In this document: piece after piece, positions 15,971 through 63,945 of the stretch
Position numbering within the stretch: the stretch's first letter is position 1
How the letters are laid out: each line of letters starts with the position of its first letter
From: Candidatus Aminicenantes bacterium
Lineage (GTDB): Bacteria; Acidobacteriota; Aminicenantia; Aminicenantales; Saccharicenantaceae
NCBI GenBank assembly: GCA_963719985.1
Contig: CAVRDU010000005.1
Location: forward strand, 1,156,432-1,220,431
DNA length: 64,000 nt
Direction: 5' to 3'
The notes under the pieces: generated by a model
Database searches by the model: none
Seen by the model: the letters and a program-made list of their open reading frames with translations, nothing else
What the model was told of the DNA's origin: nothing
Program-made: the position numbers and the translations under genes

Positions 15971-16833
15971 CCGTCCGATCGTTCGCCAAAATCAACCTCG
16001 GCCTCGAGATCGTCCGCAAAAGGCCCGACGGCTACCACGACATCCGGACGCTCTTCCAGACGATCACCCTGGCCGACGAGCTCATTATCGAGCCGGCCCC
16101 GGCCGGGGCGCTCGAGCTCGAGGGGGACGATCCGGAGGTGGCCTGGGACAAGACGAACCTCGTCCACCGGGCCGCCGCGCTCCTGCGGCGATCGAGCGGG
16201 ACGGAGGCGGGGGTCCGGATCTCCGTCAGAAAAAGCGTCCCGGCCGGCCGCGGCCTCGGCGGGGGGAGCTCGAACGCGGCGGCGACCCTCCTCGCCCTGG
16301 ACGAGATGTGGGGCCTGGGGCTTGGCGCCGCCGGCCTGGCTCCCCTGGCCAGGAGCCTCGGGGCCGATGTCCCCTTTTTTCTCGAAGGCGGCCTCTGCCT
16401 GGGGGAGGAGATCGGCGACAAGCTGACCCCTCTCGCCGACCTCGATCCGTTGGCCTGCCTCCTCGTCGTTCCCCCCTTCCCCATCCCCACGCCGTCGATA
16501 TACGCCGGAGTGGGCCCGTCCTTGACTTCCCCGGGCAAAGACAGTAAAATTGGGCGCTTTCTGGAGTCCCGAGACTTCGGTCTTCTGGAAAACGACCTGG
16601 AGCGCGTCATTTTCCGGGCCCATCCCGAGCTCGAACGCTGGAAGAGCTTTTTGCGGGACGAGGGGGCCCTCGTCGCCCAGGTCAGCGGCTCGGGCTCGGC
16701 GGTCTACGGGCTTTTCCCCGACCCGGCGAGCGGCGAGAAGGCGCGGAGGAGGCTCCCCGGCGCGACGGACGCCCGGCTTGCGGCGACCCTGCCGCGGCGG
16801 GGCTTTAGGGCCCAGCTCGGCGCTGGGGCGTAG
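15967..16833 (+). CDS. ispE: 4-diphosphocytidyl-2-C-methyl-D-erythritol kinase
   Basis: It is a GHMP kinase with the PAGRGLGGGSSNAAATLLAL motif, 288 aa long. Confidence 0.92.
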   Translation: MTVRSFAKINLGLEIVRKRPDGYHDIRTLFQTITLADELIIEPAPAGALELEGDDPEVAWDKTNLVHRAAALLRRSSGTEAGVRISVRKSVPAGRGLGGGSSNAAATLLALDEMWGLGLGAAGLAPLARSLGADVPFFLEGGLCLGEEIGDKLTPLADLDPLACLLVVPPFPIPTPSIYAGVGPSLTSPGKDSKIGRFLESRDFGLLENDLERVIFRAHPELERWKSFLRDEGALVAQVSGSGSAVYGLFPDPASGEKARRRLPGATDARLAATLPRRGFRAQLGAGA

Positions 16834-25260: not shown

Positions 25261-25287
25261 GCGTTTCTGTCGGTTCGGCCGTGGAGC

Positions 25288-25555
25288 GACTCGGAGGTCA
25301 GCCTCCCCGGCCGGGAAAGTCCTTCACGCCGGTCCGTGCGCCGGACTCGGCGGCAAAACAACTCGCTCGGCTTACGCTAAGCCTCGCTCAAACACGTTTT
25401 GCCGGTTTGCAGGCAAACTCCCCTTGTCCGGCACGCGTCCCGACTAGACTTCCCCTACACCGAGTTCGGCTGACCTCCTCGCCGGTTAGGGCGGCCTCCC
25501 TTGGGAGAACGGCAGGCTGACGAGGCCCTGCCGCGGCCTGTTCGATGGAGACGGG
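25288..25555 (+). repeat. Copy A of a roughly 210-270 nt element with terminal inverted repeats. It is a candidate structured ncRNA (sense strand +) or MITE-like repeat, and is about 90% identical to an inverted copy at 46325-46600.
   Basis: It is intergenic between ispF and the carboxypeptidase gene. It has terminal inverted repeats GGAGGTCAGCC and GGCTGACCTCC and internal hairpins (GGCAAAAC/GTTTTGCC, GGCTTA-CGC-TAAGCC, GTTTGC/GCAAAC). Compensatory changes relative to copy B preserve the pairings. Confidence 0.55.
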
Positions 25556-31885: not shown

Positions 31886-32515
31886 TCAGCGGCCGCCCTT
31901 TTTCTGCGTGCCGCCCTTGGGCCCGGCGCCGTTGCCGGCCCCGGCCGCCTTTCCGGCGCCCTGGATGCCGGCGCGGAAAGAGCCCTTGCCGAAGCTGGAC
32001 TTGGTCACCTTGCCGGCCTTCTGCCCCTGGGTCATCTCGGTCTCGTCCGGCTGGCCGATCTTGTGCTGGCCTTGGTAGCCGGATCCGTCCTCGGGCTTGA
32101 CCCAGTCGGGGTCTTGGCCGTTGGGGACTCCGTCGCCGTCGTCGTCGCGCGCGAGCTGGTAGGCGTAGCCCTCAGCCGTGCCGGCCGCGGCGCCCTTCTT
32201 GTTCTGGGCCTTGTCGCCGGTCCCGTCCCCGGGCTTGGCCCAGTCGGGGTCCTGGCCGTTGGGGACGCCGTCCCCGTCGTGGTCCTTGGCGCGGTCGTTG
32301 ATCCCGTCGCCGTTCTCGTCGATGAAGGCGACGCGATTGCGATGCTGGAACTCCGGCTTCGCCTGGACCTTGTTCTGCTGGGTCTCGCCCTTGGCCTTCA
32401 GCCCGGTCTTGATCTGGGCCTTCTCCTGGGCCTTGGTCGCGGTCTGGTCCTGAGCGGCCGCGAAGAGCATGCCGACCATCAGGATCCCGACCATGATCGT
32501 GAACATCTTTTTCAT
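31886..32515 (-). CDS. Secreted protein with thrombospondin type 3-like Ca-binding repeats (DGDGVPNGQDPDW x2)
   Basis: It has a signal peptide (MKKMFTIMVGILMVGMLFAAA) and a GGAGG RBS. It is 210 aa, with Asp/Gly-rich Ca-binding repeat motifs. Confidence 0.7.
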   Translation of the reverse strand: MKKMFTIMVGILMVGMLFAAAQDQTATKAQEKAQIKTGLKAKGETQQNKVQAKPEFQHRNRVAFIDENGDGINDRAKDHDGDGVPNGQDPDWAKPGDGTGDKAQNKKGAAAGTAEGYAYQLARDDDGDGVPNGQDPDWVKPEDGSGYQGQHKIGQPDETEMTQGQKAGKVTKSSFGKGSFRAGIQGAGKAAGAGNGAGPKGGTQKKGGR

Positions 32516-46324: not shown

Positions 46325-46600
46325 TCATCCGCGGCCTCGTCGATTTGTCGTTTTTCCGAGGGAGGCCGCCCCAAGTGGCGAGGAGGTCAGTCGAATCCGG
46401 TGTAGGGAGAGTTTAGGCGGGCCGCGTGGCGGACGAGGGCAGTTTGCCTGCAAACCGCCAAAACGTGTTTGAGCGAGGCTTAGCGCAAGCCGAACGAGTT
46501 GTTTTGGCGCCGAGTCCGGCGCACGGACCGGCGTCAAGAACTCTCCCGGCCGGGGAGGCTGACCTCCGAACCGCTCAGCGGCCTCCCTCGCTACTAAAAA
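46325..46600 (-). repeat. Copy B (inverted orientation) of the structured element seen at 25288-25555; candidate ncRNA transcribed on the minus strand
   Basis: The reverse complement aligns to copy A at about 90% identity over roughly 205 nt, with further similarity in the flanks. It sits between jag and mnmE, divergent from the mnmE promoter. Confidence 0.55.
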
Positions 46601-59195: not shown

Positions 59196-61787
59196 ATGAC
59201 CGATCCCGAATATTCCGGCGGCGTCGTCCGCGAGCTGGAGCGGCGCTTCCGCGTCGCGGCGCTCTTCCGGCGCTTCCGCGTTCGGCGGCACGAGCCGATG
59301 CAGGTCCTCGAGTACGACGCCCGGGGCGTCTGGCCGCCGCGCCCGGCCCGGCTCAATCTGTCCGTCGAACGGCACGTCGGCGGAGGATTCGCGGGCCAGG
59401 TCTACAAAGTCCGGGTCCTCGATATAGACGCGCCGGAGGGGCCCCTCGTGGGCCTCGAGCGGGGAGGGACGTATGCCCTGAAGGTCCTGGTCCCCGTTTC
59501 GGGCTTCGGGCGCTTCATCCGGAACCTCCTCTACGGCCTCGGCTTCCAGGCCGCCTTCGCCCCCCAGGTCAATCCGGACGCGGCCCGGGCGGGGGCCCTG
59601 TGGCAGAAGCTCATCCGCCGCGGGGCGCGGGAGCGGCTGGGATCGGAGCGGGCCGTGGTCGACGTCCTGGCCACCCTGGTCGACCCGATACTCGGCAGCT
59701 GCGGCGAGATCAGCGAGTGGGTGGACGGCCGGCTCTGGCGCTACGAGGTCGACGACGACCTCTTCGCCCGGCTCGGCTGGAAGCCCGGCCGGCCCGCCAA
59801 GGGCCTGGGCTCGCCGGAGTACAGGGCCAAGCGGGCCTTCATGAGGGACCTCGTCGGGCTCATGCGCGACATGGGCGCCGAGGAGCTCGCCCGCCAGTAC
59901 GAATGGTGGACGATGAAGAGCCAGCCGAACGCCCTCAAGCGACTGGAACACGACGGAGATCCGGACCTCGGACTTGTTGCCGTCGACTTCCGGGCCGGGA
60001 TGGCCCTGTTGCCCTTCCTGCCCCAATGCCCCGCCGACTTCAAGCTGATCCTCCGGGGCATCGGCCGCGGCAGCCTGGTCCAGTTCGACCGGGGCGACCT
60101 ACGCAAGCTCGAGGCGTACGCCGCCGCGCGGCCGGGGCTTTTCGGCGACATGACCGCCACTATCGAGGAGCTTAAAAAAGCCGACGGAGCCTATCGGGAC
60201 TCACTGCCCGACGTCGCCCATCACCATGTGCGGCTCCTCGCGGCGCCGCGGCTCTGGACGGCCATCCACGCCGCCTGGGTCCGGGGGTGGGAGATCCGGA
60301 ACATGGCCGACGAGCGAGCGGCGGCGGCCCTCGGCCGGAGCCGCCTCGCGGCGCTCCTCTTCGTCGGCCTCGGGCTCCTGCCTCTCCTCACGCCTGTCCT
60401 GTTCCTGCTCCGCTTCCCCGGCCGGTCGGCCGGCCTCTGGCTTCTGTGGCTCGCGCCCCTCCTGGGCCCCTTCGTCCGCCGGCTCTGGGGCCGGGGGGAC
60501 GTCAGGCGGCATGTCGCCGCCATCGTTACGAAGGGCGGCTATGTCGGCCGGGCCTTCCGCGGCCACGTGGCCGAGGCCCTGGTCGGGTGGCACAGGTCGG
60601 GCCGGGTGAACGACAAGAGGACCCTGGCCATCGCCGAAAGGCCCTGGCTCTACCTGCTCAACCGGCCGTTGGCGCTCCTCCCGCCGGGCCTGCACCGATT
60701 CCTGACGGACAAGGCCTATTTCAAAGAACGGCTCCACAGCATGTTCGTCAAGCCGTTCCTGCTCTACTTCAAGCCGTCGGTCCGCGCCGAGTGGCTCCGC
60801 GACATGGTCGAAGAGGGCCGCAAGAACCGCATGCTGAGCCCGGAGGAGGCGGAGCGGATCCTGGCCCAGATCGGCGAGCCCTACATCCAGAAGTACCTGA
60901 AGAGCCTGGCCGTCCACATGGCCACGCTGTTCGTCTCGGAGACGGTCTTCCTGACGATCGCCGCGATCTATGTCCTGGGACACCCCGAGTTCGGCTGGGC
61001 CGAGGCGACGGCCCGGGCCGCGCTCATCATCGGCGCGTTCAACCTCCTCCCGGTCTCTCCGGGCTCGCTCATCCGGGGATTCTATGTGCTGGGCCTGGGC
61101 GTCAAGGAGAGGAGCTTCAAGGACTACCGGCTGGCCCTGCCGGTCAGCTTCTTCAAGATCATCGGCTACCTGGCCTTCCCGCTCCAGATGGCCTATCGCT
61201 TTCCCGAGCTGGCCCGGTTCATGGCCGCCCATTGGGCCACGGAAGCCGTCCACATCATCCCCGTCTTCGGCGAGCGGGGCGCCTGGCTCGAACATGCCGT
61301 CTTCGACGCCTTCTACAACTATCCGCTGAGCCTCGGCATAAGGATCAGGAAGCGGGACGACCTCGCGGCGGCGAACAAACCCCGGTGGTGGGCCGTCCCG
61401 GCGACCGCGATCATCGGCGCGCTCTTCGTCACGCTGGCCGACTTTCTCTTCGTCCGGTCCGCCGGGAGGGTCCCGGCCCTCAAGGACATCTGGTGGGCCG
61501 TCTTCCTGGCCCCGATCGGGGCGGGGTTCCTGGCCTCGCTCTGGTCGCGGCGGAAAAAGATGGGGAGGAGGGTCGCGGCCGGGATCCTGGCCGGCGCGCT
61601 CGTCGGCCTAGGCTACGGTCTCGTCAACGCCTTCCTGACGCCCCTCGTCCCCGGCCTGGCCGCCGCGGCCGGAGAGACCGTAGCGAACGGCTCCCCGGCC
61701 CTGGCCATCCTCTGGAAGACCTTCATCTTCGCCCTGCTGGCCATCCCCGGCGCCTTCGTCGCCGAGACCCGCCCGCCAGGTGGATAA
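59196..61787 (+). CDS. Large membrane protein with an N-terminal UbiB/ABC1-like atypical kinase domain
   Basis: It has a GGGFAGQVYKV Gly-rich loop, YALKVL (a VAVK-like motif), an EISEWVDGRLW motif resembling the ABC1 E-W-I-D-G motif, and then more than 10 predicted TM helices. It is 863 aa. Confidence 0.7.
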   Translation: MTDPEYSGGVVRELERRFRVAALFRRFRVRRHEPMQVLEYDARGVWPPRPARLNLSVERHVGGGFAGQVYKVRVLDIDAPEGPLVGLERGGTYALKVLVPVSGFGRFIRNLLYGLGFQAAFAPQVNPDAARAGALWQKLIRRGARERLGSERAVVDVLATLVDPILGSCGEISEWVDGRLWRYEVDDDLFARLGWKPGRPAKGLGSPEYRAKRAFMRDLVGLMRDMGAEELARQYEWWTMKSQPNALKRLEHDGDPDLGLVAVDFRAGMALLPFLPQCPADFKLILRGIGRGSLVQFDRGDLRKLEAYAAARPGLFGDMTATIEELKKADGAYRDSLPDVAHHHVRLLAAPRLWTAIHAAWVRGWEIRNMADERAAAALGRSRLAALLFVGLGLLPLLTPVLFLLRFPGRSAGLWLLWLAPLLGPFVRRLWGRGDVRRHVAAIVTKGGYVGRAFRGHVAEALVGWHRSGRVNDKRTLAIAERPWLYLLNRPLALLPPGLHRFLTDKAYFKERLHSMFVKPFLLYFKPSVRAEWLRDMVEEGRKNRMLSPEEAERILAQIGEPYIQKYLKSLAVHMATLFVSETVFLTIAAIYVLGHPEFGWAEATARAALIIGAFNLLPVSPGSLIRGFYVLGLGVKERSFKDYRLALPVSFFKIIGYLAFPLQMAYRFPELARFMAAHWATEAVHIIPVFGERGAWLEHAVFDAFYNYPLSLGIRIRKRDDLAAANKPRWWAVPATAIIGALFVTLADFLFVRSAGRVPALKDIWWAVFLAPIGAGFLASLWSRRKKMGRRVAAGILAGALVGLGYGLVNAFLTPLVPGLAAAAGETVANGSPALAILWKTFIFALLAIPGAFVAETRPPGG
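61667..61777 (+). repeat. Direct repeat DR1 (111 bp): the functional 3' end of the 59196-61787 gene
   Basis: It is 108/111 identical to 62655-62765. Confidence 0.8.
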
Positions 61788-61980
61788 ACGTTCGTCGCGG
61801 AGAAGCCGCCACCGGATCTCAATTTCTTGATTCTCGTCCCCGGCCGGGGCCAGCGATCTCAAGCCGAGCGCGAAAAGGAAATTCCTTTCGTGAACGCCAA
61901 AGGGCGGATGTCCCGCGAGGGGCCCCCGTCCTTTTTTATTTTCGGGGGATTTCCATTATAATCGGGGCGGACCGACCTCC

Positions 61981-62487
61981 ATGGAAAAGGCGCTTCTGAT
62001 CATCGAGGAGATGACCCGCCTGGGGGTCATCAGGGCCTATGCCATCGGAGGGGGGGTCGCCGCCACGTACTATATCGAGCCCGTCTTGACCTACGATCTC
62101 GACATCTTCTTCATTCCGGTCAAGTCGGGGTTCGACGAGCTGAGCCCGGTTTATGACTTCGCCCGCAGCCGTGGTTATGTCGAAGAGGCCGAGGCCCTGG
62201 TCATCGAAGGGTTCCCCGTCCAGTTCATCCCGGCCTACAACGATCTCGTTCGGGAGGCCGTCACGAACGCGGCGACACTGGCCTACCGCGGCGTCCTGGC
62301 CAAGGTCGTCAGAGCCGAATACCTGGCCGCCATCGCCATGCAGACGGGGCGAGCCAAGGACCGGGAACGGGTCGTACGCCTCCTGGACGGCGACGCCGTC
62401 GACAGGGGCATGCTGGCCGACCTTCTTGAGAGACATGGCCTGGCGGAAAAGCTCAAAAAGCTCGAAGGCGGGACCGATGAAAAGTGA
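61981..62487 (+). CDS. Nucleotidyltransferase-fold protein (minimal NTase motif hG[GS]-x9-13-DhDh), hypothetical
   Basis: The segment AIGGGVAATYYIEPVLTYDLDIFF matches the minimal NTase G[GS] ... D-x-D pattern. It is 168 aa, with its own TATAAT promoter and a GGACCGACCTCC RBS region. Confidence 0.5.
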   Translation: MEKALLIIEEMTRLGVIRAYAIGGGVAATYYIEPVLTYDLDIFFIPVKSGFDELSPVYDFARSRGYVEEAEALVIEGFPVQFIPAYNDLVREAVTNAATLAYRGVLAKVVRAEYLAAIAMQTGRAKDRERVVRLLDGDAVDRGMLADLLERHGLAEKLKKLEGGTDEK

Positions 62488-62638
62488 GTCGGCAGAAGCC
62501 GCATTCGAGAAGAAGCGCCGCCGCCGCCGCCAGTTGGCCCGATTGCCGTTCGAGAAAAAGATCGAGATCGTCGTCGAACTCCAAAAGGCCGCCGCTGGCA
62601 TCCGCAAGAACTCCGCGCATCGGATCTGGCCGCTCTAG
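62477..62638 (+). CDS. Small basic protein (53 aa) with an R-x4-H (HEPN-like) motif, hypothetical
   Basis: The peptide is MKSESAEAAFEKKRRRRRQLARLPFEKKIEIVVELQKAAAGIRKNSAHRIWPL. It overlaps the NTase stop by 11 nt. Confidence 0.35.
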   Translation: MKSESAEAAFEKKRRRRRQLARLPFEKKIEIVVELQKAAAGIRKNSAHRIWPL

Positions 62639-62654
62639 CGCCTATTCCGGGGAC

Positions 62655-62765
62655 GGCCGGAGAGACCGTAGCGAACGGCTCCCCGGCCCTGGCCATCCTC
62701 TGGAAGACCTTCATCTTCGCCCTGCTGGTCATCCCCGGCGCCTTCGTCGCCGAGATCCGTCCGCC
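62655..62765 (+). repeat. Direct repeat DR2 (111 bp): a displaced duplicate of the gene 3' end
   Basis: It is the partner of DR1 and encodes an alternative C-terminus (...LLVIPGAFVAEIRPPYS). Confidence 0.8.
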
Positions 62766-62790
62766 CTATAGCTGACTCGAAGCTTCGGCT

Positions 62791-63945
62791 TTATCTCATC
62801 CGCCAGACGACCAGCTCCTTGTAGCCGTCCTGTCGTTCTGCGAGATGATAGATATGACCCCTTTTGGCCAGCGCGAAGAGGATGCCTTTGGATCTGCCGT
62901 AGGTCCCGTAATTGCCGAGGCTGACCCGCCCGGCGAAACCGCCGTCCTTCTCGAAAACATCGTACCAGTAATGGCCTTGCTCTCCTGATCCCTCGTAAGT
63001 CATTACGAACAGTCGGTCTTCATCATCGGCGAAGCCCATCTGAAACGGCGGGAACACCGTCGGGTATTCCACGTTGTCCCTGAACTCCTGCGGGAAATTT
63101 TCATACACCTTGACCAGGTCCTTCCGATCCTCCACCGACAGAGATACGGCCTGAAAGACTTTGCGGATGATCTTCTTCAGCTTGCCGCTCTTTTCGAAGC
63201 ACGCGACCTCATAGCCGGCCTCGCTGTTCCCATAAAAGACGTAATTTCTCGAGATGGCAAGGAGGATCGGCGCCTGAAGCGCTGGGAACCTCCGTCCGGG
63301 ACCTGGCCAAGTGCCCTTCCTTCGGCCGATCTCCTTCACGATCTCTAGATCAGGACCGCAGATGAGGATCCTCGAAATGGTCAGGCGTTCCACTGGATCT
63401 GGTTCCTGCTCGTGGGTGACGTAACGGCCGTCTCCCAGAGGGACGATCAAATAGGGCCGCCGAGATAGGGTTTTTTGCCGCAGAAAGACGCCGCTCCCGC
63501 CGAAGAACACCACCTTGCTCTGGGCACTATCCCAGGCCATGAGCTCGCCGCTCGTTTCGAAATAGGCACTGGTCAAGAGCCGGACCTCACCGGGCCCCTG
63601 GCCGGAGCGTCCGAAAGCGGACAGAAAGACGCCGGCCGGGCTGAACTTGAAGAAGTGGGCATCGTTGGACGATTGGCTCCAGACGAGGATGTTGCCGGCC
63701 GCGTCGACGTCGAAGGCCGCCGGATCGGAGAGACCACGCTGGACGAGGTCGGTTGAAGAAAGGTCGATCACCGCTTCCCGCCGCAATTCGAAGATGCGCG
63801 GAGGTGACGAATGATCGAGCCCCGGATCGTTCAAGACGATCTCGACGCCATCCTCCACGGAACGCACGACCGAGCTCTCTTTTTGCCGGCAACTGGTGAT
63901 CGCGAGGATCAGGACGAGGGGAATAACGCGGGCCAAACGTTTCAT
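62791..63945 (-). CDS. Lipoprotein, predicted beta-propeller (6-bladed TolB-like), hypothetical
   Basis: It has a signal peptide with an LAITSC lipobox and is 384 aa. Confidence 0.6.
   Translation of the reverse strand: MKRLARVIPLVLILAITSCRQKESSVVRSVEDGVEIVLNDPGLDHSSPPRIFELRREAVIDLSSTDLVQRGLSDPAAFDVDAAGNILVWSQSSNDAHFFKFSPAGVFLSAFGRSGQGPGEVRLLTSAYFETSGELMAWDSAQSKVVFFGGSGVFLRQKTLSRRPYLIVPLGDGRYVTHEQEPDPVERLTISRILICGPDLEIVKEIGRRKGTWPGPGRRFPALQAPILLAISRNYVFYGNSEAGYEVACFEKSGKLKKIIRKVFQAVSLSVEDRKDLVKVYENFPQEFRDNVEYPTVFPPFQMGFADDEDRLFVMTYEGSGEQGHYWYDVFEKDGGFAGRVSLGNYGTYGRSKGILFALAKRGHIYHLAERQDGYKELVVWRMR

What the first reader, a model, noticed from the sequence alone, without database searches (positions are those of the whole stretch)
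61667..62765. Roughly 1-kb insertion flanked by 111-bp direct repeats that duplicate the 3' end of the kinase-membrane gene
The last 111 nt of the 863-aa gene (61667-61777) reappear at 62655-62765 at 108/111 identity. The downstream copy ends in a different reading-frame tail and stop codon. Between the copies sit a GC-dyad plus T-run (61908-61950), an AT-rich promoter (TATAAT at 61957) and two overlapping genes. This is the architecture expected when an element integrates into the 3' end of a gene while carrying a replacement 3' end, with the attL and attR sites duplicating the target. No integrase is present, so it is either a decayed island or an uncharacterised insertion mechanism.
Basis: seen in the sequence. 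Interest (0 to 1): 0.7.

Follow-up and report, generated by a model that had tools for sequence, protein, structure and literature searches.

The report
Toxin-antitoxin insertion scar duplicating a gene end
A 1-kb piece of foreign DNA (a dead IS91-type transposon end plus a two-gene toxin-antitoxin-like operon) was recombined into the end of a conserved membrane-protein gene, bringing its own copy of the gene end and leaving the original end as a dead 112-base relic; it is a real but largely ordinary recombination scar, not a new kind of integrating element.

Summary
The repeat is real: 61666-61777 and 62654-62765 match at 109/112, and there are only two copies in the window. The DNA between them is composite:
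- a 10-nt new gene tail;
- a ~100-nt remnant of the 3' end of an IS91-family (Y2 transposase) element;
- the terminator/promoter that normally follows an RRM RNA-binding-protein gene in Aminicenantes;
- a conserved two-gene operon, A (168 aa, MenT1/AbiEii-like nucleotidyltransferase fold) and B (53 aa);
- a 15-nt scar.

The downstream copy (T2) is the original gene end and is now decaying. The upstream copy (T1) came in with the insert.

Relatives show single-ended empty sites. One close relative (L048) has the same left junction, but a different right junction in a different host haplotype. Another relative (L047), whose cassette is 99.7% identical, diverges from the window exactly after the 9-nt microhomology CGGCCGGAG.

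So the left side was resolved by homology and the right side by illegitimate joining. This resembles homology-facilitated illegitimate recombination. A circular ISCR-like intermediate is a possible rival. No att sites, fixed element ends or integrase are supported. Similar gene-end duplications recur around this cassette and around another AbiEii module.

The parts
59196..61787 (+). 863-aa conserved Aminicenantes membrane-protein gene, with no Pfam/NCBIfam family. Its present 3' end is T1 plus a new 2-codon tail.
   Evidence: ORF. There are no family hits. More than 100 full-length orthologs at 64-84% identity end in ..LLAIPGAF.AETRPP...
61666..61777 (+). T1: upstream copy of the 112-nt repeat, the functional C-terminal coding end (..LLAIPGAFVAETRPP).
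   Evidence: It matches the ortholog consensus at the residues where T2 deviates.
61778..61787 (+). New tail (GG + TAA) that replaces the native last codons. Homology to all orthologs stops at ..CCGCC.
   Evidence: Alignment of T1, T2 and four orthologs. The same junction (CCGCC[T/A]GGTGGATAA[G/A]CGTTCG) is present in L048.
61788..61887 (+). Remnant of the 3' end of an IS91-family (Y2 HUH transposase) element. The last codons of the transposase (TFVAEKPPP, 61788-61815) are followed by an internally deleted terminal module ending GCCGAGCGCGAAAAGGAAATTCC (61863-61885).
   Evidence: It is collinear with the Y2_Tnp remnant downstream of the ortholog in L042 (Pfam). The 19-mer at 61789-61807 lies at the C-terminus of more than 25 Y2 transposase copies in metagenomes. 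Copies of the terminal motif in L017 (x3), L042 and L062 diverge from one another right after it.
61888..61980 (+). 3'-UTR terminator hairpin plus T-run of an RRM RNA-binding-protein gene, followed by the cassette's -10 box (TATAAT 61957-61962). It was carried along with the cargo from its home locus.
   Evidence: 86-91% identical to the sequence between the RRM gene and A in L012, L007 and L019. Terminator scan.
61981..62487 (+). Gene A, 168 aa: MenT1/AbiEii-like (DUF2204-type) nucleotidyltransferase, a putative toxin.
   Evidence: More than 1000 homologs and 1538 clusters at 50% identity. 29 of 64 diverse homologs hit Pfam DUF2204. The profile hits PDB 8an4, MenT1, at E 1.3e-6. AF2 model pLDDT 93.9. 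Foldseek top hits are MenT1/MenAT1, E 3e-9, TM 0.68-0.71.
62477..62638 (+). Gene B, 53 aa, basic, overlapping A by 11 nt: the invariable partner of A and a putative antitoxin.
   Evidence: It follows A, usually with the same 11-nt overlap, in every locus whose contig reaches past A. It has no family hits.
62639..62662 (+). Right junction: a 15-nt scar (cgcctattccgggga) plus the 9-nt microhomology CGGCCGGAG, which is also the start of T2.
   Evidence: L047 (99.7% identical over 61916-62662) is identical through CGGCCGGAG and then continues into an RRM tail. T1 is preceded by GCGGCCGGAG.
62654..62775 (+). T2 plus the original tail and stop (..LLVIPGAFVAEIRPPYS*): the relic of the recipient's original gene end, now non-coding and decaying.
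   Evidence: Its tail CCGCCCTATAGCTGA is homologous to ortholog tails (L043 CCGCCCCATTCATGA). It carries A->V and T->I at conserved residues. It lies 15 nt from the convergent gene whose ortholog (80% identity) lies next but one downstream of the gene in L043, with a paralog in between.
62791..63945 (-). Convergent DUF5128 (6-bladed beta-propeller) gene, the native downstream neighbour.
   Evidence: Pfam. 80% identical to L043:7796-8950.

Best explanation
The segment 61778-62653 is a composite piece of foreign 'flexible' DNA: a new tail, an IS91-family 3' remnant, an RRM-gene terminator, the A-B nucleotidyltransferase toxin-antitoxin-like operon, and a scar. It entered a genome that originally read gene-T2-PPYS*-DUF5128. 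The incoming DNA came from a related lineage in which the same 863-aa gene was already followed by the IS remnant and the cassette, so it carried its own copy of the gene end (T1). On the left, the join was made by homologous recombination within the conserved gene. On the right, the foreign end was joined illegitimately at a 9-nt microhomology (CGGCCGGAG) 122 nt upstream of the recipient's stop codon. Because the right join fell upstream of where left-side homology ends, the last 112 nt of the gene are now present twice. T1 is translated. T2 is an untranslated relic that has picked up C->T changes. This is the pattern of homology-facilitated illegitimate recombination (HFIR). Retention of the insert is plausibly favoured by the addictive toxin-antitoxin cargo.

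What is shown: the composition of the insert, the empty sites, the shared left junction, and the different right junctions at microhomologies.

What is inferred: the order of events, a linear donor with RecA/transformation-type uptake, and the toxin-antitoxin function and addiction.
For: 1. Empty sites. Orthologous loci have one gene end and no A-B (L043, L046, L042, L044).

2. T2 is the native end. Its tail aligns with ortholog tails, whereas T1's tail (AGGTGGATAA) aligns with none. T2 abuts the gene whose ortholog (80% identity) lies next but one downstream of the gene in L043, with a paralog in between. T2 carries two non-conservative changes at near-invariant residues.

3. L048, from an independent sample, has the identical left junction (gene end | GGTGGATAA | IS remnant | terminator | A | B). 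Its right side runs about 100 nt further into a C108 remnant, then joins at CGTCGCCGAG to the last ~40 nt of a different host haplotype. That haplotype's empty form is L046 (95.9-96.7% identical downstream).

4. L047 has a cassette 99.7% identical to the window's. It shares the 24 nt after B, then diverges exactly after CGGCCGGAG into an RRM tail.

5. The insert is about 94.5% identical between the window and L045/L049/L050, whereas the adjacent gene is only 85% identical between the window and L048. This argues for horizontal spread of the insert.

6. The cassette has no fixed ends. Its home locus is RRM-terminator-A-B-C108, and transplanted copies carry RRM pieces of varying length.

7. HFIR is documented to join foreign DNA at 3-10 bp microhomologies next to a one-sided homologous anchor (PMC6382021, read).

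8. Among about 20 distinct cassette loci, 8 are flanked by direct repeats, against 0 of 52 control positions.
Against: - The donor state (gene - IS remnant - A - B with no relic) was not found. The left flank of L047 is unknown because the contig is only 905 nt.
- An attempt to locate the left crossover in L048 was inconclusive. T is so conserved that donor-like and recipient-like sites cannot be told apart.
- T1 and T2 are 97% identical, so a purely intragenomic duplication cannot be excluded from the window alone.
- The three mismatches cluster in the last 37 nt (chance about 0.04).
- IS91-family ends lie next to one repeat copy in several other loci (L007, L024, L036, L110). This hints that a transposon-driven route may be involved rather than plain HFIR.
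- Natural competence in Aminicenantes is unknown.
- No read-level check of the assembly was possible.
Confidence: 0.55

Rival explanations
1. ISCR-like route. An IS91-family rolling-circle element sitting just downstream of the gene co-mobilised the gene's last ~120 nt by reading past its terIS end. It later picked up the RRM-terminator-A-B segment next to its oriIS end. A circular intermediate [T - IS remnant - A - B] then integrated by RecA recombination within T (Campbell type), duplicating T. This is how complex class 1 integrons acquire ISCR1 plus captured genes between two partial copies of the 3'-conserved segment.
For: - The IS remnant sits exactly between T1 and the cargo. It has the same orientation as ISCR1 between 3'CS1 and its captured genes, with the oriIS side facing the cargo (ISCR1 layout from PMC6218425).
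- The terminal motif is a sharp boundary after which independent copies diverge.
- Gene-3'-end or terminator fragments lie directly upstream of IS91-type remnants, in the same orientation, in L036, L062 and L110. An IS-end fragment directly follows the right-hand repeat copy in L007 and L024.
- The repeat length (112 nt) is adequate for RecA.
Against: - Only about 100 nt of the IS survive, and no transposase is found in the window.
- The window and L048 share the same oriIS|terminator junction but differ in both T length (112 versus ~22 nt) and right junction. On this model that needs two independent captures ending at the same point, or RecA recombination across ~22 nt.
- No GTTC/CTTG target signature was seen at the junctions (sequence inspection).
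- ISCR transposition itself has never been shown experimentally (PMC6218425).
Confidence: 0.22
2. One reading: a decayed site-specific integrative element (a CIME-like island remnant). On this reading its attL and attR are the 112-nt repeats, and it was mobilised by an integrase that has since been lost or is encoded elsewhere.
For: The architecture resembles islands that integrate into gene 3' ends: a replacement 3' end plus a direct repeat of the target. A second module (DUF6922-AbiEii) in L043 is likewise flanked by 110-nt duplicates of the aspS 3' end.
Against: - There is no integrase in the insert.
- The element ends are not fixed. The cassette lineage shows three different right ends, and the left side is an IS remnant shared with an ortholog locus that lacks the cassette (L042).
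- The duplication length differs between related insertions in the same gene (112 versus ~22 nt).
- The targets differ (863-aa gene, RRM, gene X, aspS) with no common core.
- The junctions lie at short microhomologies.
Confidence: 0.06
3. In-situ event in a single genome. Either a transposition or repair-type insertion with a very long (112-bp) target-site duplication, or a tandem duplication followed by replacement of the interior.
For: T1 and T2 are 97% identical. T2's differences look like post-duplication decay: two non-synonymous and one synonymous, all C->T.
Against: - T1's tail and the IS remnant are shared with L048 in a different host haplotype. The left junction therefore predates, and is independent of, the window's duplication.
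- T2's upstream edge (CCGGGGACGG) resembles other alleles (L043 CCGGAACGG) and not T1 (CCGCCGCGG).
- No known prokaryotic transposition makes 100-nt duplications of variable length.
Confidence: 0.07
4. Assembly artefact: two strain haplotypes (one with the cassette, one with the DUF5128 neighbour) joined into one contig.
For: This is a metagenome-assembled genome, both flank types exist in nature, and no reads are available to check.
Against: - The join would have to occur at a 9-nt microhomology, far below any assembler's k-mer or overlap length.
- The copies differ at 3 positions, so this is not a collapsed or duplicated k-mer.
- The protein database places the window's genes on a single 1.70-Mb contig.
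- Analogous structures occur in independent assemblies made with different assemblers (L007, L024, L031, L048).
Confidence: 0.04

Closest known systems
Homology-facilitated illegitimate recombination (HFIR) products described in Acinetobacter baylyi, Streptococcus pneumoniae and Pseudomonas stutzeri (de Vries & Wackernagel 2002; Prudhomme et al. 2002; as summarised in PMC6382021)
   Same: There is a one-sided homologous anchor (the conserved gene). Foreign DNA is joined at its other end through a 3-10 bp GC-rich microhomology close to the anchor. Independent events from one donor type give different illegitimate junctions.
   Different: Here the process is inferred from natural genomes of an uncultured phylum, not from transformation experiments. 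The illegitimate joint fell inside the anchor, so the outcome is a duplication rather than the usual insertion-deletion. The uptake route is unknown.
Complex class 1 integrons: 3'CS1 - ISCR1 - captured genes - partial 3'CS2 (Stokes 1993; Toleman 2006; layout in PMC6218425)
   Same: A conserved segment is partially duplicated on both sides of an IS91-family element plus captured genes. The IS abuts the left copy, its oriIS side faces the cargo, and the right copy is truncated at its left end at variable positions.
   Different: Only a ~100-nt dead IS remnant is left. The cargo is a toxin-antitoxin-like operon, not a resistance gene. The duplicated segment is the coding 3' end of a chromosomal gene. 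The host phylum is Acidobacteriota/Aminicenantes. No transposase or circular form was seen.
Genomic islands / CIMEs integrated in gene 3' ends by tyrosine recombinases
   Same: A direct repeat of the target gene's 3' end flanks the insert, and the insert supplies a replacement 3' end.
   Different: There is no integrase, no fixed element ends and no conserved core. The repeat length and right junction vary between related insertions.
MenAT1 / AbiE nucleotidyltransferase toxin-antitoxin systems (DUF1814/DUF2204 superfamily; PMC10435456)
   Same: A has the MenT1 fold (TM ~0.7) and the GG..TxDxD nucleotidyltransferase motif. It is always paired with a very small partner protein in a two-gene operon. 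MenA1 is likewise a 68-aa non-DNA-binding antitoxin.
   Different: Sequence identity to MenT1 is about 18%. The window protein itself does not reach any Pfam threshold. The small gene lies downstream of the toxin-like gene, whereas menA1 lies upstream. Toxicity is untested.

Membership tests
Site-specific integrative element (attL/attR island) | Integrase/recombinase gene in or next to the element | tested here: not met
   The only genes between the repeats are A (nucleotidyltransferase fold) and B (53 aa). Neither hits any recombinase family.
Site-specific integrative element (attL/attR island) | Fixed element ends and the same att core in independent insertions | tested here: not met
   The window, L048/L045 and L047 share the cassette but have three different right junctions. 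The duplication is 112 nt versus ~22 nt. Transplanted copies carry RRM fragments of varying length on the left.
HFIR-type insertion | Homologous anchor on one side only, shared between independent events | tested here: met
   The left junction (gene end | GGTGGATAA | IS remnant) is identical in the window and in L048, which sit in different host haplotypes.
HFIR-type insertion | Illegitimate joint at a 3-10 bp microhomology | tested here: met
   CGGCCGGAG (9 nt) in the window, shown by comparison with L047 and T1. CGTCGCCGAG (7-10 nt) in L045/L048, shown by comparison with L007 and L046.
HFIR-type insertion | RecA-dependent uptake of linear donor DNA (transformation) | not testable with these tools
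   The lineage is uncultured. The left crossover could not be localised.
IS91/ISCR family element | Y2/HUH rolling-circle transposase gene | tested here: not met
   Only the last ~9 codons (TFVAEKPPP) survive at 61788-61815. tblastn with a Y2_Tnp ORF finds nothing else in the window.
IS91/ISCR family element | Conserved oriIS-side terminus downstream of the transposase, forming a sharp boundary with unrelated DNA | tested here: met
   The terminal module ending GCGCGAAAAGGAA(A/T)TTCC lies 190-275 nt after the transposase stop in L017, L042, L059, L079 and L128. Flanks diverge right after it, and the window and L045 carry a shortened version.
IS91/ISCR family element | Insertion next to GTTC/CTTG without target duplication; evidence of rolling-circle intermediates | tested here: inconclusive
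   No clear tetranucleotide signature was seen at the boundaries inspected. Circular forms cannot be assayed here.
MenT/AbiEii (DUF1814/DUF2204) nucleotidyltransferase toxin-antitoxin | Nucleotidyltransferase fold with catalytic G..(S/T)xDxD motif | tested here: met
   AF2 pLDDT 93.9. Foldseek hits MenT1 at E 3e-9, TM 0.68-0.71. D41 is invariant, and G24, T37 and D39 are nearly invariant, across 64 diverse homologs. DUF2204 is hit by 29 of 64.
MenT/AbiEii (DUF1814/DUF2204) nucleotidyltransferase toxin-antitoxin | Toxicity of the nucleotidyltransferase and its neutralisation by the adjacent small protein | not testable with these tools
   The only evidence is strict A-B co-occurrence and translational overlap.
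Diversity-generating retroelement (TR/VR pair at a gene 3' end) | Reverse transcriptase nearby and adenine-specific mismatches between the repeats | tested here: not met
   There is no RT. The only three mismatches are C/T transitions, and they are not at template adenines.

The most novel reading that the evidence does not exclude
The window shows one product of a recurrent, IS91-derived (ISCR-like) capture system in Aminicenantes. In this reading, non-autonomous oriIS-bearing remnants, mobilised in trans, pick up the 3' ends and terminators of conserved genes (RRM, the 863-aa gene, others) together with nucleotidyltransferase toxin-antitoxin operons. They then re-enter genomes as circles by recombination within the captured gene end. 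This would explain why long gene-end duplications cluster around these cassettes.
Probability: 0.2. Interest if true: 0.55.

Novelty: new member of a known kind. Interest (0 to 1): 0.35.

Why it matters
It gives a clear natural example, in an uncultured phylum, of how a small selfish toxin-antitoxin operon spreads between lineages without its own recombinase. It rides next to a conserved gene and is stitched in by homology on one side and microhomology on the other.

It also cautions against a common inference: a 'gene-3'-end direct repeat plus cargo' pattern is not by itself evidence of an integrase-type island.

Three by-products may be useful:
- It defines a large uncharacterised MenT1-like nucleotidyltransferase family (more than 1500 clusters at 50% identity) with a conserved 53-aa partner.
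- It identifies that family's home locus, downstream of an RRM gene.
- It flags an IS91-family element whose ends sit at many of the rearrangement joints.

The 112-nt repeats also make the insert potentially reversible by RecA-mediated deletion. That would restore an intact gene end. This point is an inference.

Tried and rejected
- DGR TR/VR pair: rejected. There is no RT, and the mismatches are C/T, not at adenines.
- Structured RNA or tRNA target: Rfam found nothing in 61600-62900, and only one tRNA (at 16824) in the whole window.
- Phage or plasmid carrier: there are no relatives of A in viral contigs, and only one distant (36%) plasmid hit. PHROGs and PADLOC gave no hits.
- Other copies in the window: none for the repeat, the terminator, A/B or the transposase.
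- JGI metagenome scan for the IS-remnant|terminator junction: 0 hits. The close relatives were found only in Logan assemblies.
- First AF2 run, on a shallow alignment, gave an unusable model (pLDDT 54). It was redone with 64 diverse homologs.
- Locating the left crossover in L048 from donor-like versus recipient-like sites: the apparent signal (Fisher p = 0.004) is explained by the high conservation of T, so it is not used.
- Looking up the window's own contig through P0121 failed, so no genome-wide search of the source MAG was possible.
- I first read the RRM-fragment 'repeats' as att-like sites of a circular unit. The variable junctions after C108 argue against a fixed unit.

Full report
OBSERVATION

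The repeat is real. Positions 61666-61777 and 62654-62765 are 112 nt long and 109/112 identical. They are the only two copies in the window, with 0 expected by chance. The first 75 nt are identical. The three differences are all C in copy 1 versus T in copy 2.

Copy 1 (T1) is the coding end of the 863-aa ORF 59196-61787. Copy 2 (T2) continues in the equivalent frame to a different tail and stop (..PPYS*, stop 62773-62775). That stop lies 15 nt from the stop of a convergent DUF5128 gene at 62791-63945.

Between the copies lie the hairpin plus T-run, TATAAT at 61957-61962, and two overlapping genes: A (61981-62487, 168 aa) and B (62477-62638, 53 aa). Elsewhere in the window, 0 of 52 control positions are flanked by comparable repeats.

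WHAT THE CARGO IS

A and B hit no Pfam, NCBIfam, PADLOC or PHROGs model directly. A nevertheless belongs to a very large family:
- more than 1000 close homologs, mostly Aminicenantes;
- 1538 clusters at 50% identity;
- 29 of 64 diverse members hit Pfam DUF2204, 'nucleotidyl transferase of unknown function';
- a family profile hits the MenT1 toxin (PDB 8an4) at E 1.3e-6.

An AlphaFold model built on the diverse alignment (pLDDT 93.9) is closest to MenT1/MenAT1 of M. tuberculosis (Foldseek E 3e-9, TM 0.68-0.71). The GG..T37-x-D39-x-D41 motif is conserved.

B follows A, usually with the same 11-nt overlap, in every locus whose contig extends past A. MenT1 is also neutralised by a very small (68-aa) partner, although that partner lies upstream (PMC10435456). 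I therefore read A-B as a MenT/AbiEii-like toxin-antitoxin pair. The function is inferred, not shown.

WHERE THE CARGO COMES FROM

In GTDB genomes and metagenome contigs, the A-B pair most often follows a 103-105-aa RRM RNA-binding-protein gene and its terminator. It is often followed by a conserved minus-strand 106-112-aa gene, here called C108. Examples are L012, L016, L017, L019 and L007.

The 95 nt upstream of A in the window (about 61888-61980) is this RRM terminator/promoter region, at 86-91% identity. Copies of A-B found in other contexts carry RRM 3' fragments of different lengths, or none. The cassette therefore has no fixed left end. On the right it ends at B's stop or runs into C108. 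This is not what a discrete mobile element looks like.

THE SPACER IS A DEAD IS91-FAMILY END

Positions 61788-61887 are collinear with the region downstream of the orthologous gene in L042. That region contains a Y2_Tnp (PF04986) remnant.

Positions 61788-61815 encode the transposase's last residues (TFVAEKPPP). The 19-mer at 61789-61807 sits at the C-terminus of more than 25 Y2 transposase copies retrieved from metagenomes.

Positions 61823-61885 are a shortened version of the element's terminal module, ending GCCGAGCGCGAAAAGGAAATTCC. In L017 (three copies), L042 and L062, the flanking sequences diverge immediately after this motif, so it marks the element's end on the side downstream of the transposase.

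Homology between T1 and every ortholog stops at ..CCGCC. The next 10 nt (AGGTGGATAA) supply the new tail GG*.

WHICH COPY IS ORIGINAL

More than 100 orthologs end ..LLAIPGAF.AETRPP followed by a short variable tail. T1 matches this. T2 encodes LLVIPGAFVAEIRPP, with changes at two near-invariant residues, as expected for an unselected relic.

T2's tail (CCGCCCTATAGCTGA) aligns with ortholog tails (L043 CCGCCCCATTCATGA). T1's tail aligns with none.

The gene after T2 is the ortholog (80% identity) of a DUF5128 gene downstream of the 863-aa gene in L043. L043 has an extra paralog in between. The upstream M16 peptidase genes are syntenic in L043 and L046.

So T2-tail2-DUF5128 is the recipient's native arrangement, and T1-tail1-IS remnant came in with the insert.

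RELATIVES OF THE INSERTION

Logan contigs L045, L048, L049 and L050 carry the same IS remnant-terminator-A-B block, about 94.5% identical to the window. The adjacent gene in L048 is only 85% identical to the window's.

L048 shows the whole structure:
- the gene end with the same left junction (CCGCC[T/A]GGTGGATAA[G/A]CGTTCG..);
- the same block, but continuing after B for about 100 nt into a C108 remnant;
- a junction at CGTCGCCGAG to the last ~40 nt of the host's own gene, followed by that host's native downstream 421-aa gene.

The empty form of that host haplotype is L046, which is 95.9-96.7% identical downstream and has the tail ..HPKTI*. In L048 the duplication is only about 22 nt.

L047 has a cassette 99.7% identical to the window over 61916-62662. 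This includes the 15-nt scar and CGGCCGGAG. L047 then continues into an RRM RGG-tail (..GGGGRY*) instead of T2.

One cassette lineage thus has one shared left junction and three different right junctions, each at a short GC-rich microhomology, in different host backgrounds.

MECHANISM

The simplest reading has four parts.
- A donor lineage already carried gene - IS remnant - terminator - A - B.
- DNA from it entered naive genomes.
- The conserved gene provided the homologous join on the left.
- The heterologous right end was joined illegitimately at a microhomology that happened to lie inside the recipient's copy of the gene end (122 nt before the stop in the window, about 40 nt in L048).

This is the signature of homology-facilitated illegitimate recombination, which joins foreign DNA at 3-10 bp microhomologies beside a one-sided anchor (PMC6382021). 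Here the outcome is a duplication instead of the usual deletion.

Two things may explain why such scars are seen so often around this cassette. Toxin-antitoxin cargo may favour retention. Events that deleted part of the conserved gene would be lost.

RIVAL: A CIRCULAR, ISCR-LIKE INTERMEDIATE

This rival is not excluded. The layout T1 - IS91 remnant (oriIS side facing the cargo) - cargo - left-truncated T2 parallels complex class 1 integrons: 3'CS1 - ISCR1 - captured genes - partial 3'CS2 (PMC6218425).

IS91-type ends also adjoin repeat copies or gene ends in L007, L024, L036, L062 and L110.

Against it:
- only about 100 nt of the IS remain;
- the window and L048 share the oriIS|terminator junction yet differ in T length and right joint, so two circles would have to close at the same point;
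- recombination across ~22 nt would be needed for L048.

OTHER RIVALS

A site-specific island is disfavoured by the absence of an integrase, of fixed ends and of a constant core.

An assembler cannot create a join at 9 nt of identity. The two copies differ at three positions. The same kind of structure appears in independent assemblies. I could not check reads.

GENERALITY

Among about 20 distinct A-B loci with enough flank, 8 have direct repeats flanking the cassette. The strongest are the window (112 nt), L007 (83 nt, RRM), L017/L019 (RRM), L024 (146 nt, the end of another gene, joined in-frame to a truncated ORF) and L031 (129 nt).

Across all 861 kb fetched, only 9 direct-repeat pairs of 60-300 nt at 0.3-5 kb spacing exist:
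- six are at A-B loci;
- one flanks RRM-tail duplicates next to an IS91 remnant (L110);
- one is a set of internal WD40 repeats;
- one, in L043, flanks a DUF6922-AbiEii toxin-antitoxin module with 110-nt duplicates of the aspS 3' end.

The sample is biased by how the loci were fetched. Even so, the architecture recurs.

VERDICT

The 'insertion carrying a replacement 3' end' idea is right. The att/integrative-element reading is not supported.

It is a recombination scar of a known kind with an uncharacterised but recognisable cargo. Interest is moderate: higher if the IS91-linked capture route proves real, low if it is plain HFIR.

Noticed in passing
window 25277-25527 and 46333-46583: A 251-nt intergenic sequence is present twice in inverted orientation (87% identical), 21 kb apart. 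One copy follows an ispDF-like (YgbB) gene; the other lies between jag and mnmE. There is no Rfam hit. It could be a MITE-like element or an unannotated RNA.
   Followed up: partly
window 32059-32146 and 32197-32284: An 89-nt near-tandem direct repeat (86.5% identical) with a 50-nt spacer. Not examined.
   Followed up: no
L043 9140-9249 and 10325-10434 (locus of the P0125 ortholog): A DUF6922 + AbiEii (PF08843, E 2.6e-12) toxin-antitoxin module is flanked by 110-nt direct repeats (90%) that duplicate the 3' end of the aspartyl-tRNA synthetase gene. This is the same architecture as the finding, with a different gene and a different nucleotidyltransferase toxin.
   Followed up: partly
L012, L016, L019, L017, L007, L013 (A-B home loci): The conserved arrangement is RRM gene - terminator - A - B - C108(-). 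After C108 there is a conserved ~60-nt stretch. It is then joined to RRM fragments starting at different codons (about 26-31, 47 and 53) in L007, L019 and L013. These look like repeated independent joints or differential decay of a second RRM copy.
   Followed up: partly
L024 4470-4730; L007 6290-6360; L017 515-600: The right-hand repeat copies in L007 and L024 are both followed at once by the same ~55-85-nt sequence (GATATCCTCATTTTGTGAG...GAGCNCGAAGCCGG). This is a variant of the IS91-family terminal module. In L024 the relic of gene X's end is fused in-frame to a truncated ORF whose sequence looks RelE/ParE-like (judged by eye; no family search was run).
   Followed up: partly
L062 1-290: A ~190-nt non-autonomous derivative of the IS91-family element (last ~25 transposase codons plus the full terminal module) sits directly after an RRM-type terminator. 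It shares the window's internal deletion (..AEKPPPDL..TTGAC..CCGGCCGGG), which suggests a MITE-like subfamily.
   Followed up: partly
L042 2885-3400; L044 6196-7079; L046 4517-4744: The region downstream of the 863-aa gene differs in every relative examined: IS91 remnant + AraC, a PRiA4_ORF3 gene, a 421-aa gene, or DUF5128 paralogs. The gene's 3' flank is a variable hotspot.
   Followed up: partly
L110 12128-13886: An RRM gene tail plus its 3'UTR is duplicated (126 nt, 86%) around a partial 207-aa gene. An IS91-family transposase C-terminal remnant lies directly downstream of the intact RRM copy, in the same orientation.
   Followed up: partly
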